From an uncultured Actinomycetota bacterium (GTDB lineage: Bacteria > Actinomycetota > Actinomycetes > Mycobacteriales > Nakamurellaceae): a stretch of 64,000 nucleotides of DNA. Each line of letters begins with the position of its first letter. Position 1 is the stretch's first letter. A program made the position numbers and the translations under genes. The notes under the pieces were generated by a model, which was not told the DNA's origin, searched no databases, and saw nothing but the letters and a program-made list of their open reading frames with translations. Of this stretch, positions 35,452 through 52,199 are shown one piece after another. The stretch covers positions 118,710 to 182,709 of the forward strand of contig CAVPLZ010000010.1 of the NCBI GenBank assembly GCA_963706185.1, in the 5' to 3' direction.

Positions 35452-36499
35452 ACGGTGCCCGAGCGGGTGCCGAAGTAGATGCCGGTCGGGTCGCCGGCGT
35501 CGACACAGGCCGCGTCGCGCATGACCGCTGAGTACATGCCGTCCTGTGGGAGTCCGTCGGTCAGCGCCTCCCAGGTGTCACCGGAGTCGGGCGAGCGCCA
35601 GACCTTCATCGCCCCGTCCGGCGGGAACCGTTCGACGTCGGCGACCAACGGGAAGACCAGTACCGTGCCGGGCCTGCGCGGGTCGGTCAGCACCGGGAAC
35701 CCGAACGTCGCCGGCAGGCCGGGTTCGATCGAATCCCAGTGCGCGCCACCGTCCTTCGTCCGGAATACCCCGCCGTGGTTCTGCGCGAACAGCAGGTCGG
35801 GATTGGCGGCGTCCCTGGCCACCTTGTGCACGCACTGGCCGAACTCGGGGTACTTCTTGCCCTCCGGGTTGAAGTCGGCCCTGATGCCGGTGGACCGCGG
35901 CGACCACGACCGGCCACCGTCGGTGGTCCGGTAGCACCCGCCGGTGGACATGGCGATGAGCACGTCGTCCGGATCATCGGGATGGGGCAGCACGGTGTGC
36001 ACCGCCTGGCCGCCGAACCCGGGTTCCCAGGTCTCGCGGTGCGGGTGGTCCCAGAGCGCGTCATTCATGGAGAACGTGACGCCCCAGTCGGTCGACCGGA
36101 ACACCGCGGACGGTTCGACGCCGGCCCACACCTCGCCCGGCTGGACGCCCGGGGTGATCTGCCAGACCCGTTTCAACGTGGTGCCGGTGCGTTCCGGGAA
36201 CCGGATGGCGTCCTCGGGCACGCCCTGCCAGCTGTGGCCCAGGTCGTCGGAGTGCAGCACCCTGGTGCCGTAGACGAAGTTCGTGCTCCCCGCAAAGAGT
36301 CTTGGGGTGACGTGAGCGCCGTCCCTATCGTGGCGGGCACCGTCGTCCGCGCCGCGCGGGTCGACCCCGACCGCGGCGACCTCCTCCATCGGTAGCTGGG
36401 GGCCCTCGCACCGACCACGTCTTCCGGTCGTCGTCGGATCGGCCGATCCACAGACCCTTGCGGGTTCCGATGAGCAGCACACATTCGGTCATCAGTCAC
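35361..36499 (-). CDS. BNR/Asp-box beta-propeller protein, N-terminal frameshifts
   Basis: Repeated S.D.G.(S/T)W boxes (SDDLGHSW, TTDGGRSW, TKDGGAHW, SPDSGDTW), GQCVHKV, QNHGGV. Confidence 0.85.
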
Positions 36500-36589
36500 C
36501 TCTGCGCGTTCTCGGGACTTCGGTGGTCACCTGGAAAGGACAACAGTGACACCGCCAACTCATCGGTGTCGAGCGCTACGTTGATTCCC

Positions 36590-37115
36590 GTGAGCACCGA
36601 CGACCGTGTATCCGGCGACGGGCTGGGCGGATCGAGGGTCCGGCTGCGACCGGTGCGCGACGAGGACCGCGACCGCCTCCTGGAAATCCGCAGCACGACC
36701 CAGGTCCGGCGGTGGTGGGGCACGCCGTACGACGACGAGGGCGACGGCGCAGACGACACAACGCACCGGTTCGTCGATCGAGTTCGAGGACCGGGTCGTC
36801 GGGTTGATCCAGTACGGCGAGGAACTCGACCACATGTACCGGCACGCCAACATCGACCTGTACCTGGATCCGTCGGTGCACGGTCGCGGCCTCGGGCAGG
36901 ACGCCGTGCGCACCCTGGCCCGCTACCTGCTGGACGTGCTCGGTCACCACCGGCTGGTCATCGACCCGGCCGCGGACAACGAGCCGGCGATCCGCTGCTA
37001 CACGGCGGTCGGATTCCGTCCGGTCGGCGTCATGCGTGCCTACGAGCGGGACCCCGAGGGCACCGGATGGCACGACGGCCTGCTGATGGACCTGCTGCGC
37101 GGGGACCTGCGCTGA
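36590..37115 (+). CDS. RimJ/AAC(6')-like GNAT acetyltransferase, frameshifted near 36777
   Basis: VRLRPV..V.RWWG, YRHANIDLYL, HGRGLG, HHRLVIDPAADNEPAIRCY..VGF. Confidence 0.85.
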
Positions 37116-37208
37116 ACGTCGGCTTGCGGCTGGCGGCCCGGTCGTCGGCTGGCTAGGTTCGCACAACCACGGTCGTCAGAGCGGCGACCGGGAAATTGGA
37201 GGTCCACC

Positions 37209-39099
<1,891 letters not shown>

Positions 39100-40990: not shown

Positions 40991-41174
40991 CCTGTCGGTC
41001 AGCTGGCGGCCGCAGGTCACGCACGGGGTTGCCCCAGCAATCGAGGGCGAAGCCCGATCTTCGCGGTCGGCCTACATGCCGGTGCACTGCCGTCGTGCTG
41101 CGCCAGGTGCGCAGCGACTGCTCCAAACTGGGGCCGACATCCGCGGACGTTGCCCGCTGCCGCCTGCGGTCGCA

Positions 41175-41650
41175 ACCCACGTCGGACACGGCTCGCGTTG
41201 CCGGCATGGGACAGGCAGCCTCGCGTACGGCCGTCGCTGCGCCGACACTCATGTCGGACCCACTGTCGGTACCCGGACTAGCGTCGTCGACGGGGATCGA
41301 GCACCGCGGCCGCGGCGGAGCCGCTCGGCCGACACTTATCGGGCCCAATGTCGATACGGTCTATCGTCGTCGGCAGCGGATCGAGGCCACTGCGGACGGG
41401 CTGCTGCGCGAATCGACGTGTACCCACTGTCGGTACCCGGGTCTAGCGTTGTCAGTATGGGGAAGAACAGCCACCAGCGCGGTGGAGCTGCTGCGACGAC
41501 ACGGTTGTCTTACCCACTGTCGGTACCCGGGTCTAGCGTTGTCGGCTGTGGGGAACCGACGGCGGCTGCACCCGCGGACCGCTGCGACGAAACGCTTGTC
41601 GGACCCACTGTCGGTACCCGGGTCTAGCGTTTCGGGTAGGGGGTGAGGGC
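41175..41650 (+). repeat. Tandem array of about six 79-91 bp units: conserved core with PafBC-type promoter plus unique 21-25 nt segments
   Basis: ACCCACTGTCGGTACCCGGGTCTAGCGTT identical at 41422, 41512 and 41603; near-copy at 41258; decayed copies at 41175 and 41343. Confidence 0.88.
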
Positions 41651-43012
41651 ATGACGGACGTGGTGGACGGCGGGGGCCGACTGACTGAGGTGCTCTCCCA
41701 GATCGATACGATGACGGCCGCAGTGGATCAGTTCCTGGAATCGAATCTGTTCTGCCTCACCGGCCTGGAGCGGCTGACGGTGTCACGTCAGCTGGAGATC
41801 GCCGCTCGCAAAGTGGGTTTCGCCCAGATCTCGATGGCCGGCGAGCACGAGCTCGCTGCAGATGCCAAGTCCCACGGCGCCGCTTCCACCGCCGCGCTGC
41901 TCGCGCACACGCTGAACATCTCTCGCGGCGAGGCCGGCCGTCGAGTCGCTCTGGCCGCACAGACCTGCGACACCCTGGCCATCTCCGGCGATCTCATCGG
42001 CGCGCGAATGCCGGCCATGGGTGCGGCGATGGCCGCCGGTGCCATCTCTACCGACCACGCCCGGATCATCTCGGCGGCGGTGCACGACAAGACCGTCACG
42101 CACCTGGACCCGGCCATCCTGGACGAGGCGGAAGAGGTCCTGGTCGACTGCGCGACCCAGATGGAGCCGGGAACCCTCTCGAAGGCGGCCCAGAAGATCG
42201 TCGAAACCCTCAACCCCGACGGCATACTCGACGACGAACGCTACGACCCGGCCGCCCACGCCGAACTGCACATCGGCCCACGGGACCGCCGCACCGGACT
42301 GACCCCGATCGCCGGCAAACTCGACGATCTGGGCGCCGAGACGTTGCGCCGCGCCATCGACACGCTGTCCGCACCGCGGCCCGAGCAGAACGGCGTCAAG
42401 GATCCACGACCTGCCGCGACCCGCCGAGCGCACGCCCTCGTCGAAGCCCTCCGCGCCCTGCTGGACATCGGAGCTGCGCCGGCCCGCAACAGCGTCCGGC
42501 CGCACATCACCGCCACCATGACGCTGGACGAGCTACTCGACCTGGCCCGCGGCGCAGATCTTCTCGACGGCACCCACCTGTCCGCAGCACAGACGCGGAT
42601 GCTGCTCTGCGACGCAGACATCGTGCCCGTCGTACTCGGAGGTCGCGGCGAAGTGCTGGACGTCGGCCGGGCCCTCCGCACCGCAACCCCGGCCATCCGG
42701 CGAGCGGTCACTGCGCGCGACAAGGGTTGTGCGTTCCCGGGTTGCGACCGGCCGCCGGAATGGTGCGACTTCCATCATCTGATCTGGTGGTGCCGCGGGG
42801 GACCGACCAGCGCGGACGAGGGCTGCCTGCTCTGCCCGCACCATCATGCCGAAATCCACCGCGAACACTGGAAAGCACATCGCGGCAAGGACGGACTCCC
42901 CGAGTTCATCCCGCCCGTGTGGGTCGACCCGGAACAGAATCCGCGACGCAACGTCATGCACGACCCTCCGGTCCCCCGGGTCGGAACCGCAGCGACCCGC
43001 GACCGCCGATGA
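41651..43012 (+). CDS. DUF222 + HNH endonuclease (13E12-repeat family)
   Basis: GAISTDHARII, DPRPAATRRAHALVE, CDADIVPVVL..VLDVGR, RDKGCAFPGC..CDFHH..W..GG.T....CLLC..HH..IH. Confidence 0.93.
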   Translation: MTDVVDGGGRLTEVLSQIDTMTAAVDQFLESNLFCLTGLERLTVSRQLEIAARKVGFAQISMAGEHELAADAKSHGAASTAALLAHTLNISRGEAGRRVALAAQTCDTLAISGDLIGARMPAMGAAMAAGAISTDHARIISAAVHDKTVTHLDPAILDEAEEVLVDCATQMEPGTLSKAAQKIVETLNPDGILDDERYDPAAHAELHIGPRDRRTGLTPIAGKLDDLGAETLRRAIDTLSAPRPEQNGVKDPRPAATRRAHALVEALRALLDIGAAPARNSVRPHITATMTLDELLDLARGADLLDGTHLSAAQTRMLLCDADIVPVVLGGRGEVLDVGRALRTATPAIRRAVTARDKGCAFPGCDRPPEWCDFHHLIWWCRGGPTSADEGCLLCPHHHAEIHREHWKAHRGKDGLPEFIPPVWVDPEQNPRRNVMHDPPVPRVGTAATRDRR

Positions 43013-45994: not shown

Positions 45995-47425
45995 GTGCCC
46001 CGACCCGACGAGCCGGCCCAGCAGAACCCGACCCAGCAGAACCCGGCCCAGCAGAACCCGACCCAGCAGAACCCGGCCCAGCAGGGCGGGATCGGGCAGG
46101 ACCCACTGCTGGTCGGGCTGAACCGGCAGATCGCCCGGCTGGCCCTGCCGGCCCTGGGGGCGCTGCTGGCCGAGCCGACGTTTCTGCTGGTCGACACCGC
46201 GATCGTGGGCCACCTGGGCACCGCGCAGCTGGCCGGGGTCGGCGTCGCCGGCATGATCCTGTCCACGGCGGTCGGCCTCTCGGTGTTCCTGGCCTACGGC
46301 ACCACCTCGCTGGTCGCCCGGCGACTCGGCGCCGGTGACCTGCGGGCGGCGCTGTCCAGTGGCATCGACGGGGTCTACCTGGCCGTCCTGATCGGCGCGA
46401 CGCTGGCGGTGCTCGGGTTGCCCACCGCGTCCGCGCTGGTCGGCGCGCTCGGCGCCGGCACGGATGCGGCCGCGTACGGCACCACCTACCTGGTGATCTC
46501 GCTGGCCGGGCTGCCCGCGATGCTCGTCGTGCTCGCCACCACCGGTGTGCTGCGCGGACTGCAGGACACCAGGACGCCACTCGTCGTGGCGGTGGCCGGT
46601 GCGGTGCTGAACACGATCCTCAACCTGACCTTCGTCTACGGCCTGCACTGGGGCGTGGCCGGCTCGGCGATCGGTACCGCCGTCACCCAGAACCTGATGG
46701 CGGTCGCGCTGGTCGCGGTCGTGGTCAGGGCTGCGCGCCGCCACGAGGCCTCCCTGCGACCACATCTGGGCGGCATCACCGGCGCCGGGCGGACCGGCAT
46801 CCCGCTGTTCCTGCGCACCCTCGCGCTGCGGATCGCCATCCTGGCGACGACGGCGGTGGCCGCCCGCCAGGGCGTGGCCGCGCTGGCCGCGCATCAGGTG
46901 GTCACCGCCGTGTGGAACTTCCTCGCCCTCGGCCTGGACGCGATCGCGATCGCCGCCCAGGCGCTCACCGGCAAAGCGCTCGGGGCCGGCGATCTGCCCG
47001 CCGCCCGGGCCCTGACCCGCGCCATGGTCCGCTGGGGCTTGGTGGCCGGTGCAGTCGTCGGCGTGGTGCTGCTGGCCATCCACGTCGTGGTCGGGCGCGC
47101 GTTCTCCCCCGACCCGGACGTTCGCGGTGCGATCGCCGCGTCGATGATCGTGCTGGCGATCGCGCTGCCGTTGGCCGGCTTCGTGTTCGTCCTCGACGGT
47201 GTGCTCATCGGTGCCGGAGACGGCTGGTACCTGGCCTGGACCGGGGCGCTGAACCTGCTCGGCTACTTGCCGGCGCTGGTGGTGCTGATGGTCTGGCCGC
47301 CGGGCGGCTGGGTCGGGCTGATGTGGTTGTGGATCGCCCACGCCGGGCTCTACCTCGGCCTGCGCGCGCTCACCCTCGGGCTGCGCTACCGCGGCGACCG
47401 CTGGCTGGTGCCGGGCGTGGCCTGA
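45995..47425 (+). CDS. MATE efflux transporter (DinF-like)
   Basis: LALPALGALLAEP.FLLVDTAIVGHLG, GVLRGLQDTRTPL, LDAIAIAAQAL, LDGVLIGAGD. Confidence 0.93.
   Translation: MPRPDEPAQQNPTQQNPAQQNPTQQNPAQQGGIGQDPLLVGLNRQIARLALPALGALLAEPTFLLVDTAIVGHLGTAQLAGVGVAGMILSTAVGLSVFLAYGTTSLVARRLGAGDLRAALSSGIDGVYLAVLIGATLAVLGLPTASALVGALGAGTDAAAYGTTYLVISLAGLPAMLVVLATTGVLRGLQDTRTPLVVAVAGAVLNTILNLTFVYGLHWGVAGSAIGTAVTQNLMAVALVAVVVRAARRHEASLRPHLGGITGAGRTGIPLFLRTLALRIAILATTAVAARQGVAALAAHQVVTAVWNFLALGLDAIAIAAQALTGKALGAGDLPAARALTRAMVRWGLVAGAVVGVVLLAIHVVVGRAFSPDPDVRGAIAASMIVLAIALPLAGFVFVLDGVLIGAGDGWYLAWTGALNLLGYLPALVVLMVWPPGGWVGLMWLWIAHAGLYLGLRALTLGLRYRGDRWLVPGVA
46013..46084 (+). repeat. In-frame 15/30-bp VNTR encoding (QQNPT/QQNPA)n in the MATE N-terminus
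   Basis: CCGGCCCAGCAGAACCCGACCCAGCAGAAC repeated about 2.4 times. Confidence 0.9.
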
Positions 47426-51776: not shown

Positions 51777-52199
51777 ATGAAAGGTCCATCGCGGCGGTCG
51801 ATCCGCTCCCGCGGGTCGTTGCTCTCGATCGGCTCGGTCAACTCGGTGCTCTCGATCGGTTCGGTCGGGTCCGTCCTGTCGATCGGCTCGGTCGGATCGT
51901 TCGGCTCCGCGTTCTCGTTCGGGTCTGCCATGTCCGCGGCCTCGATCGGGTCGTTCCAGGCCGCCGGGGCCGTGCTGTCCGGGCAGTCGAACCGGTCCGT
52001 GCTGTCCTGGCAGTCGAACGGCGCGGTGCTGGCGAGCCGATCATCGGGGCCACTTCCGCAGGCGGCGCTGCTGCCCGTCGCGATCATGGGGCTCACCCTC
52101 GGAGTGCTCTGGGTGGTCCTCGTTCGGAGCGGAGGAATTCGGCGCCCGGGATCGCGGCCGCCCGGCGAATCCAATCCGTTGCCCGGAGCACCGGGATAG
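51777..52199 (+). CDS. Small Ser-periodic repeat protein with C-terminal TM
   Basis: SLLSIGSVN-SVLSIGSVG-SVLSIGSVG-SFGSAFSFG repeats; high GC at third codon positions in this frame. Confidence 0.75.
   Translation: MKGPSRRSIRSRGSLLSIGSVNSVLSIGSVGSVLSIGSVGSFGSAFSFGSAMSAASIGSFQAAGAVLSGQSNRSVLSWQSNGAVLASRSSGPLPQAALLPVAIMGLTLGVLWVVLVRSGGIRRPGSRPPGESNPLPGAPG

What the first reader, a model, noticed from the sequence alone, without database searches (positions are those of the whole stretch)
41175..43012. Repeat-spacer-like array of DNA-damage promoters directly upstream of a DUF222-HNH nuclease
Seen in sequence: units start at 41175, 41258, 41343, 41422, 41512 and 41603 (spacing 83, 85, 79, 90, 91). 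The conserved block is about 65 nt, roughly GCTGCGACGAmACGsTTGTCkk-ACCCACTGTCGGTACCCGGGTCTAGCGTTGTCrG..TGGGGAA, and its 29-nt centre is identical in the three gene-proximal copies. Between blocks lie unrelated segments: GAACAGCCACCAGCGCGGTGGAGCT (25 nt), CCGACGGCGGCTGCACCCGCGGACC (25), CGAGCACCGCGGCCGCGGCGGAGCC (25), and two of 21-22 nt in the decayed copies. Conservation falls with distance from the gene; fainter traces lie near 41077-41093 and 40993. The last copy ends about 20 nt before the nuclease ATG. Established: TGTCGG-N10-TA-N3-T is the PafBC-dependent RecA-NDp promoter of mycobacteria, and each intact core is an exact match (TGTCGG-TACCCGGGTC-TAGCGT). DUF222-HNH (13E12) genes are DNA-damage inducible and functionally uncharacterised. 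Inference: constant repeats, near fixed-length unique inserts, polar decay and an adjacent HNH nuclease resemble a guide-array system, but here each unit carries its own promoter. It could be a damage-induced small-RNA array feeding the nuclease, a record of repeated insertion or duplication at the element end, or simply promoter amplification.
Basis: partly seen in the sequence, partly recalled or inferred. Interest (0 to 1): 0.88.

Follow-up and report, generated by a model that had tools for sequence, protein, structure and literature searches.

The report
Duplicated damage promoter before HNH nuclease
An actinomycete carries six diverged head-to-tail copies of a DNA-damage-type promoter region in front of a nuclease gene, and the pieces between copies are related to matching pieces in relatives, so this is likely an old promoter duplication that would raise damage-induced expression, not a CRISPR-like guide array.

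Summary
The six-unit array is real and three units hold exact PafBC motifs. The inserts are not captured DNA. Two of five align with the same stretch in close relatives (19/26, 20/26, 16/25; joint p=0.0003), about as diverged as neutral sites in the gene (60-62%). One relative has that stretch as the plain flank of its single promoter. Copy number varies (6, 2, at least 2, 1). No credible phage or plasmid match, Rfam hit or covarying RNA fold was found. Of 29 homologous genus loci, 28 have at most one motif; 19 of 22 actinobacterial three-promoter arrays lack an adjacent DUF222 gene. Best reading: an old promoter tandem repeat (about -80 to +10), likely amplified to three units and then doubled, kept for stronger damage induction, like the dop/lpdA repeats of M. 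tuberculosis. Remaining oddities: it recurs at two other DUF222 subfamilies (57 and 93 bp), three inserts align with nothing, and the N-terminus weakly resembles ParB/KorB DNA-binding domains. The scan noted a different repeat at DUF222-HNH genes elsewhere (e1-5334882, untested).

The parts
41175..41257 (+). Unit 1, decayed promoter copy; keeps ATG GG after the remnant -10
41258..41342 (+). Unit 2, promoter block 26/28 to intact copies but 9-nt spacer; middle aligns with relative L121 (20/26) and unit 4 (17/26)
41343..41421 (+). Unit 3, most decayed promoter; post-promoter part best matches the gene start after unit 6 (22/37), likely the end of an older three-unit block
41422..41511 (+). Unit 4, 90 nt; exact PafBC motif 41428-41449; ATG at 41457, 7 nt after the -10 (leaderless position); insert 41465-41489 homologous to G057, L120, L121
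41512..41602 (+). Unit 5, 91 nt; exact PafBC motif 41518-41539; GTG at 41548; insert 41556-41580 aligns with no other insert
41603..41650 (+). Unit 6, gene-proximal exact PafBC motif 41609-41630 plus G-rich ribosome-binding-like leader
41581..41602 (.). Imperfect palindrome block (CCGACA-N4-TGTCGG type) directly upstream of promoter 6; copies precede units 2, 3 and 5 (exact copy at 41242-41257) but not units 1 and 4
41548..41646 (+). 32-codon upstream ORF from unit 5's GTG; stop ends 4 nt before the nuclease ATG; same frame and stop in L120
41651..43012 (+). DUF222-HNH (13E12-type) gene, 453 aa; predicted N-terminal ParB/KorB-like helical domain (about 51-195) and HNH domain (about 347-415)

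Best explanation
The array is six diverged tandem copies of the roughly 90-bp region around the nuclease gene's PafBC-type promoter, likely made by old duplications and likely kept because several promoter copies would raise DNA-damage induction of the gene. The duplicated unit runs from about -80 to +10 (inferred): upstream flank (the 'insert'), palindrome block, promoter, first leader bases. Selection likely held the promoter block while the flank drifted at about the neutral rate, which gives the repeat-spacer look without any DNA capture. The order of events was likely one promoter, then three units, then a doubling of the three-unit block, whose upstream copy decayed (weakly supported). 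Under damage, ssDNA-activated PafBC would fire the three intact promoters; the upstream ones would make leaderless RNAs whose short ORF ends at the nuclease start (untested). The protein is predicted to be a DNA-binding helix-turn-helix plus HNH nuclease rather than an RNA-guided one.
For: Shown: inserts homologous across relatives (u4-G057 19/26, u4-L120 16/25, u2-L121 20/26; cross-genome joint p=0.0003; within-genome joint p=0.007). Fourfold-site identity of the gene to these relatives is 0.60-0.62, the middle region 0.73 and the promoter block 24-28/28. L121 has insert plus palindrome ahead of a single promoter. Copies: 6 in G000, 2 in G057, at least 2 in L120 (contig starts there), 1 in L121. 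25 of 39 PafBC motifs in the genome have ATG/GTG 6-8 nt after the -10, as units 4 and 5 do. Two adjacent WYL genes lie next to a tatC-like gene, the usual pafBC setting (locus layout recalled). Same architecture, alignable over the whole unit, at two other DUF222 subfamilies: 3 x 57-58 bp in G057 and 2-3 x 91-93 bp at 5 of 12 fetched DUF222 loci of a Sporichthyaceae genome. Precedent: promoter tandem repeats of dop, lpdA and cysG, with a 12.5-fold expression gain quoted for four lpdA copies (PMC12817950 passages).
Against: Inserts of units 1, 3 and 5 have no pair below p=0.05, and units 4 and 5 share an identical 29-nt core while their inserts are at chance level (11/26), so a long neutral drift or core-only gene conversion must be assumed. 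The second promoter is damaged in both relatives (9-nt spacer in G057; GTC triplet broken in L120), which weakens the case for selection on several active copies. The three-unit doubling scores best of six orders only by 228 to 217. Nothing here measures expression. The assembly is 53% complete with several split ORFs, so small indels may be errors.
Confidence: 0.73

Rival explanations
1. The units are operator or target arrays for the protein itself: its ParB/KorB-like domain binds the palindrome or promoter block (self-regulation), and its own nicks next to the promoter cause the duplications, so such arrays are a footprint of 13E12 element biology.
For: Predicted N-terminal domain matches ParB, Spo0J, KorB DNA-binding domains as top rows (Z 7.8, rmsd 3.6, 104 aligned; Z 7.1; Z 6.8; Z 6.7) and Noc (Foldseek prob 0.96, E 0.56). 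All 3 true tandem-promoter repeats found in 77 family genomes (two independent loci) precede DUF222 genes, while DUF222/HNH genes take 10 of 37 motif loci in G000.
Against: Z under 8 may be a common helical arrangement (tool note). Two independent events at about 27% background is weak (roughly p 0.07). 19 of 22 actinobacterial arrays from the GTDB scan have no DUF222 match within 2.5 kb. Full conservation of the 10-nt spacer is ordinary: 6 of 20 matched G000/G057 promoters are 10/10.
Confidence: 0.12
2. The copies work as a damage-induced small-RNA array or as decoy sites that titrate PafBC-RNA polymerase, independent of the nuclease.
For: Gene-less tandem PafBC-motif arrays exist in Amycolatopsis, Actinophytocola, Umezawaea and Actinokineospora.
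Against: No covariation support (consensus -8.7 kcal/mol, covariation term +0.82, 2 of 15 pairs with any double change); no Rfam match; no terminator-like element was seen between units by eye (not scanned); two extra sites add little to 39 in the genome.
Confidence: 0.07
3. A CRISPR- or TIGR-like guide array in which each unit carries a captured 25-nt guide for the HNH nuclease.
For: Near-constant unit length, identical cores, and three inserts with no alignable partner; the HNH domain resembles that of IscB (Z 7.6, 65 aligned), as it does restriction-enzyme HNH domains.
Against: Inserts are vertically inherited and diverge near the neutral rate. No significant phage or plasmid match (best E 0.1 and 0.4). 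Exact 21-mers in viral contigs: 0, 0 and 3, the three being a GC-rich string with unrelated flanks. In-genome matches no longer than shuffles reach. 28 of 29 homologous loci lack arrays.
Confidence: 0.03
4. Assembly artefact of a long-read metagenome bin.
For: 53% completeness and split ORFs; no run of the same strain was found to check it.
Against: Independent assemblies G057 and L120 show the same 90-bp tandem; the copies are too diverged to be collapsed or expanded reads.
Confidence: 0.03

Closest known systems
Promoter tandem repeats (VNTRs) of M. tuberculosis: dop, lpdA, cysG (PMC12817950, passages read)
   Same: Head-to-tail 50-100-bp units that include the promoter region, leaderless genes, copy number differing between lineages, presumed effect on expression.
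   Different: Here the copies are old and diverged (middle region 57-73%), so rapid phase variation is unlikely; the promoter is the inducible PafBC type; variation is seen between species, not shown within a population.
PafBC-dependent (RecA-NDp) promoters (PMC8635444, PMC8223512; passages)
   Same: Exact 22-nt motif in three copies; 39 motifs in the genome against 2 for the reversed control.
   Different: Normally single; tandem exact copies were rare in the genome samples searched.
13E12 / DUF222-HNH family (PMC3381160, passages)
   Same: PF02720, HNH-type C-terminus, RecA-NDp upstream, several paralogues per genome.
   Different: This copy sits stably beside a GH15 trehalase-like gene in relatives and has a multiplied promoter; the other 9 motif-bearing paralogue loci in G000 have one exact motif.
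CRISPR arrays and TIGR-Tas arrays (recalled, no call)
   Same: Only the look: constant block alternating with a variable block near a nuclease.
   Different: Variable blocks are inherited homologues; each unit is a promoter; flanking genes are hemerythrin and trehalase-like.

Membership tests
CRISPR-type guide array | Spacers unrelated to one another (independently acquired) | tested here: not met
   9 of 28 insert pairs align at p<0.01; joint p 0.007 within genome, 0.0003 across genomes
CRISPR-type guide array | Spacers match foreign or self targets | tested here: inconclusive
   No significant match in phages, plasmids, IMG/VR or own genome; a blank is common for real spacers too
CRISPR-type guide array | Array consistently linked to the effector family | tested here: not met
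   28 of 29 homologous loci have at most one motif; 19 of 22 actinobacterial arrays lack DUF222 nearby
TIGR-Tas (features recalled) | Short (about 36-nt) dual-spacer units | tested here: not met
   Units are 79-91 nt with one variable block
TIGR-Tas (features recalled) | Nop-type RNA-binding domain in the effector | tested here: inconclusive
   Not among listed fold matches; residues about 190-345 are poorly modelled
PafBC-dependent promoter | tGTCgg-N10-tA-N3-T motif | tested here: met
   Exact in units 4, 5, 6; 9-nt spacer in unit 2; consensus from PMC8635444
PafBC-dependent promoter | pafB-pafC pair in the genome | tested here: met
   Two adjacent WYL genes on C13 beside a tatC-like gene; identity inferred from family and recalled gene order
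PafBC-dependent promoter | Induction by DNA damage dependent on PafBC | not testable with these tools
   No expression data held
13E12 / DUF222-HNH | DUF222 domain | tested here: met
   PF02720 E 7e-44
13E12 / DUF222-HNH | C-terminal HNH domain | tested here: met
   Invariant C360, C365, H375, H376, C395, H398, H399; fold match to IscB, TagI, McrA HNH Z 7.1-7.6; Pfam HNH not detected
13E12 / DUF222-HNH | LexA box at the promoter | not tested
   No scan run
Promoter tandem repeat (VNTR) | Head-to-tail units containing the promoter, alignable end to end | tested here: met
Promoter tandem repeat (VNTR) | Copy number differs between lineages | tested here: met
   6, 2, at least 2, 1 in four orthologous loci
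Promoter tandem repeat (VNTR) | Phase-variable copy number within a population | tested here: inconclusive
   No run of the same strain; copies are diverged
Promoter tandem repeat (VNTR) | Expression scales with copy number | not testable with these tools
   Needs reporter assays

The most novel reading that the evidence does not exclude
DUF222-HNH (13E12) proteins are sequence-specific DNA-binding nucleases with a ParB/KorB-like reading head that bind and nick at their own damage promoter; this repeatedly spawns tandem promoter-plus-start-codon units (90, 57 and 93 bp in three subfamilies, each a whole number of codons) that act as operator arrays and give N-terminally extended isoforms. The arrays would then mark the DNA site of a long-uncharacterised actinobacterial nuclease family.
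Probability: 0.12. Interest if true: 0.65.

Novelty: new variant of a known kind. Interest (0 to 1): 0.27.

Why it matters
It removes a guide-array candidate and shows how a tandem promoter can mimic a repeat-spacer array once the flank drifts. The modest gain is a lead on the 13E12 family: promoter multiplication recurs at its genes and the N-terminus may be a ParB-like DNA reader, which makes the unit a ready test substrate. No paper on tandem PafBC promoters or on DUF222 function came up in six library searches (open-access library only, listings read).

Tried and rejected
Protospacer searches: phages 21 and plasmids 89 records at E<=10, none significant; IMG/VR exact 21-mers for three of five inserts (0, 0, 3; flanks unrelated). 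Array DNA against 60 relatives: no match better than E 5e-5; G057 was not in that draw. Rfam: none for the locus or six other arrays. RNAalifold: no covariation. PDB sequence search: none; Foldseek: nothing at E<=0.001; no RNA-binding fold listed, which excludes nothing. Protein against phages: one partial hit. Sequencing runs: no RNA holder listed, best share 0.23; contigs of 4 of 23 runs laid, none spans the array; one contig starts inside a core and is uninformative. Extra binding site inferred from spacer conservation: dropped after the control. Coding constraint on the unit: not supported, frames differ (u4 to u5 to gene out of frame; G057 stops early). Faint upstream traces: background level. 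Tandem pattern in viral contigs: 2 hits, neither a repeat at a DUF222 gene by eye. G007, G038, G011 pattern hits: not repeats. DUF222/HNH not found with these queries in two array-rich genomes G101 and G102. 40 of 43 non-actinobacterial loci were not inspected; 50 of 263 candidate ORFs were sent to Pfam.

Full report
Observation. The window lies on contig C10 of a 4.13-Mb, 70% GC actinomycete bin, 53% complete. Six units start at the stated coordinates with lengths 83, 85, 79, 90 and 91. Units 4-6 share 29 identical bases and each holds an exact TGTCGG-N10-TA-N3-T motif, the PafBC consensus given in PMC8635444 (passages). The genome has 39 such motifs against 2 for the reversed control, 25 of them with ATG/GTG 6-8 nt after the -10, and 12 motifs at 10 of 37 loci precede DUF222/HNH genes. 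Two adjacent WYL genes beside a tatC-like gene are likely pafBC. The downstream gene is PF02720 DUF222, flanked by a hemerythrin gene and a convergent GH15 trehalase-like gene. The faint traces near 40993 and 41077 are at background level, and decay is not monotonic, since unit 3 is worse than unit 2.

Relatives decide the insert question. Three close orthologues with upstream DNA were found: G057 (90% amino-acid identity) and metagenome contigs L120 and L121 (87-88%). G057 and L121 share the trehalase-side flank, L120 only a short piece of it. G057 has two units at a 90-bp period, L120 at least two (its contig begins 57 nt upstream), L121 one. The inserts align: unit 4 with G057 19/26, with L120 16/25, with L121 18/27; unit 2 with L121 20/26 and with unit 4 17/26. 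Nine of 28 pairs reach p<0.01 against mononucleotide shuffles; joint p is 0.007 within G000 and 0.0003 across genomes. Inserts of units 1, 3 and 5 have no pair under p=0.05, and only 1 of 10 within-genome pairs is significant alone. Fourfold-degenerate sites of the gene are 60-62% identical between G000 and these relatives, the middle region of unit 4 is 73%, and the promoter block 24-28 of 28. So the variable block has diverged about as neutral DNA does while the promoter block was held. In L121 the insert and palindrome block lie ahead of a single promoter, which fits the insert being the promoter's ordinary upstream flank (inference; loss of a copy in L121 is equally possible). A control showed that complete conservation of the 10-nt spacer is ordinary: mean 72%, 6 of 20 matched G000/G057 promoters at 10/10; some of the 20 are paralogue pairs.

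History of the array. The palindrome block precedes units 2, 3, 5 and 6 but not 1 and 4; the stretch after unit 3 best matches the gene start after unit 6 (22/37, z 3.1); and the in-order pairing 1-4, 2-5, 3-6 scores best of six orders, 228 against 217. This suggests a three-unit block that was doubled and whose upstream copy decayed; support is weak. Unit 4, G057 and L120 keep ATG GGG at the leaderless position; unit 5's GTG opens 32 codons that stop just before the nuclease ATG, as in L120; G057's frame stops earlier.

How general is it. Of the best locus in each of 29 genus genomes, 16 have one motif, 12 none and only G057 two. Scans of 77 family genomes over periods of about 42-132 bp found true repeats only in G000 and G057. 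G057 has a second array, three units of 57-58 bp, ahead of a frameshifted gene 40-51% identical to a G000 DUF222 protein whose own promoter is single. Exact tandem motifs at 72-102 bp occur in 0 of 400 phylum and 1 of 400 order genomes. A three-promoter scan of GTDB gave 66 loci, 23 of them actinobacterial (22 arrays, 12 genomes). Three arrays, all in one Sporichthyaceae genome, precede DUF222 genes. There 5 of 12 fetched DUF222 loci have 2-3 units of 91-93 bp that repeat the promoter and first five codons, align over their whole length (29/50 to 45/49 in the variable part) and are fully in frame at 3 of 5 loci; their shared flanks point to one event spread with the element. The other 19 arrays have no DUF222 match within 2.5 kb. 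The unpublished genome G054 enters only as a count in the tallies.

No sign of guides. The array has no significant match in phage or plasmid collections; exact 21-mers of three inserts gave 0, 0 and 3 viral contigs, the three with unrelated flanks, and in-genome matches were no longer than shuffles reach. There is no Rfam match and no covariation support for a unit RNA.

The protein. AlphaFold2 on 23 sequences gave mean pLDDT 71 with a poorly modelled middle; the N-terminal 191 residues alone gave 93. The best long matches of that domain are ParB, Spo0J and KorB DNA-binding domains (Z 7.8, 7.1, 6.8, 6.7; 89-105 residues aligned) and Noc by Foldseek (prob 0.96, E 0.56). These scores are under the level at which the tool calls a match clear, so this is a lead. 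Residues 347-415 match HNH domains of IscB, TagI and McrA (Z 7.1-7.6).

Comparison and verdict. The closest known kind is the promoter tandem repeat, described for dop, lpdA and cysG of M. tuberculosis (PMC12817950, passages); promoter duplication is also reported upstream of cfiA, unvalidated (PMC13509656, passages). 13E12 genes are damage-induced and carry RecA-NDp (PMC3381160, passages); PafBC regulates that promoter across actinobacteria (PMC8223512, passages). CRISPR and TIGR features are recalled, not from a call. No supplements were read. The array is a real but explicable promoter amplification (confidence 0.73); the functional benefit is inferred, and the second promoter is damaged in both relatives. 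A self-binding operator model remains open at about 0.12 and the guide array at about 0.03. Interest 0.27.

Noticed in passing
L069, L078, L091, L096, L106, L117-L119 (Actinokineospora inagensis DSM 44258; e.g. L091:2501-2960 +): A dispersed non-coding element: 2-3 tandem PafBC-motif units (75-80 bp) followed by about 260 nt with a long hairpin (4 of 92 pairs with double changes in 6 copies). At least 41 near-full copies at 91-100% identity, only 40 of 251 candidates scored; no Rfam hit; 196 PafBC motifs in the genome; no DUF222/HNH found with the queries used. A candidate damage-induced structured RNA or miniature mobile element, arguably more interesting than this finding.
   Followed up: partly
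L080, L084, L108, L112 (Amycolatopsis, about 2500-2800 +) and L157: Gene-less arrays of 3-4 PafBC-motif units, each followed by a short G/C hairpin, at one orthologous intergenic site between a polysaccharide lyase and an aldehyde dehydrogenase gene.
   Followed up: partly
L059, L072, L097, L098, L114, L063 (Actinophytocola and an uncultured actinomycete): Gene-less arrays of 3-5 PafBC-motif units with a DnaA-box-like 9-mer (motif recalled) about 20 nt upstream of each promoter.
   Followed up: no
G000 C2:45916, C3:150376, C3:233966, C10:57431, C21:64340, C22:46094: A second DUF222-HNH subfamily with six copies sharing about 250 nt of upstream sequence with inverted repeats and a DnaA-box-like 9-mer before the PafBC motif; looks like the end of a mobile element.
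   Followed up: partly
G057:C11:119706-119842 (L192): Three 57-58-bp tandem PafBC promoter units ahead of a frameshifted DUF222-like gene.
   Followed up: yes
L141, L146, L148, L150, L154 (Sporichthyaceae SAW263): 93-bp promoter-plus-start units that read in frame into DUF222 at 3 of 5 loci and would give N-terminally extended isoforms.
   Followed up: partly
window 36458-39087; G000 C13:181600-183200: Several genes look split by frameshifts (glucosidase-like and acetyltransferase-like ORFs by eye; the WYL pair), consistent with assembly indel errors.
   Followed up: no
window 46013-46084 and 51798-52031: Short tandem repeats (15/30 bp; 27 bp), the first inside a long ORF.
   Followed up: no
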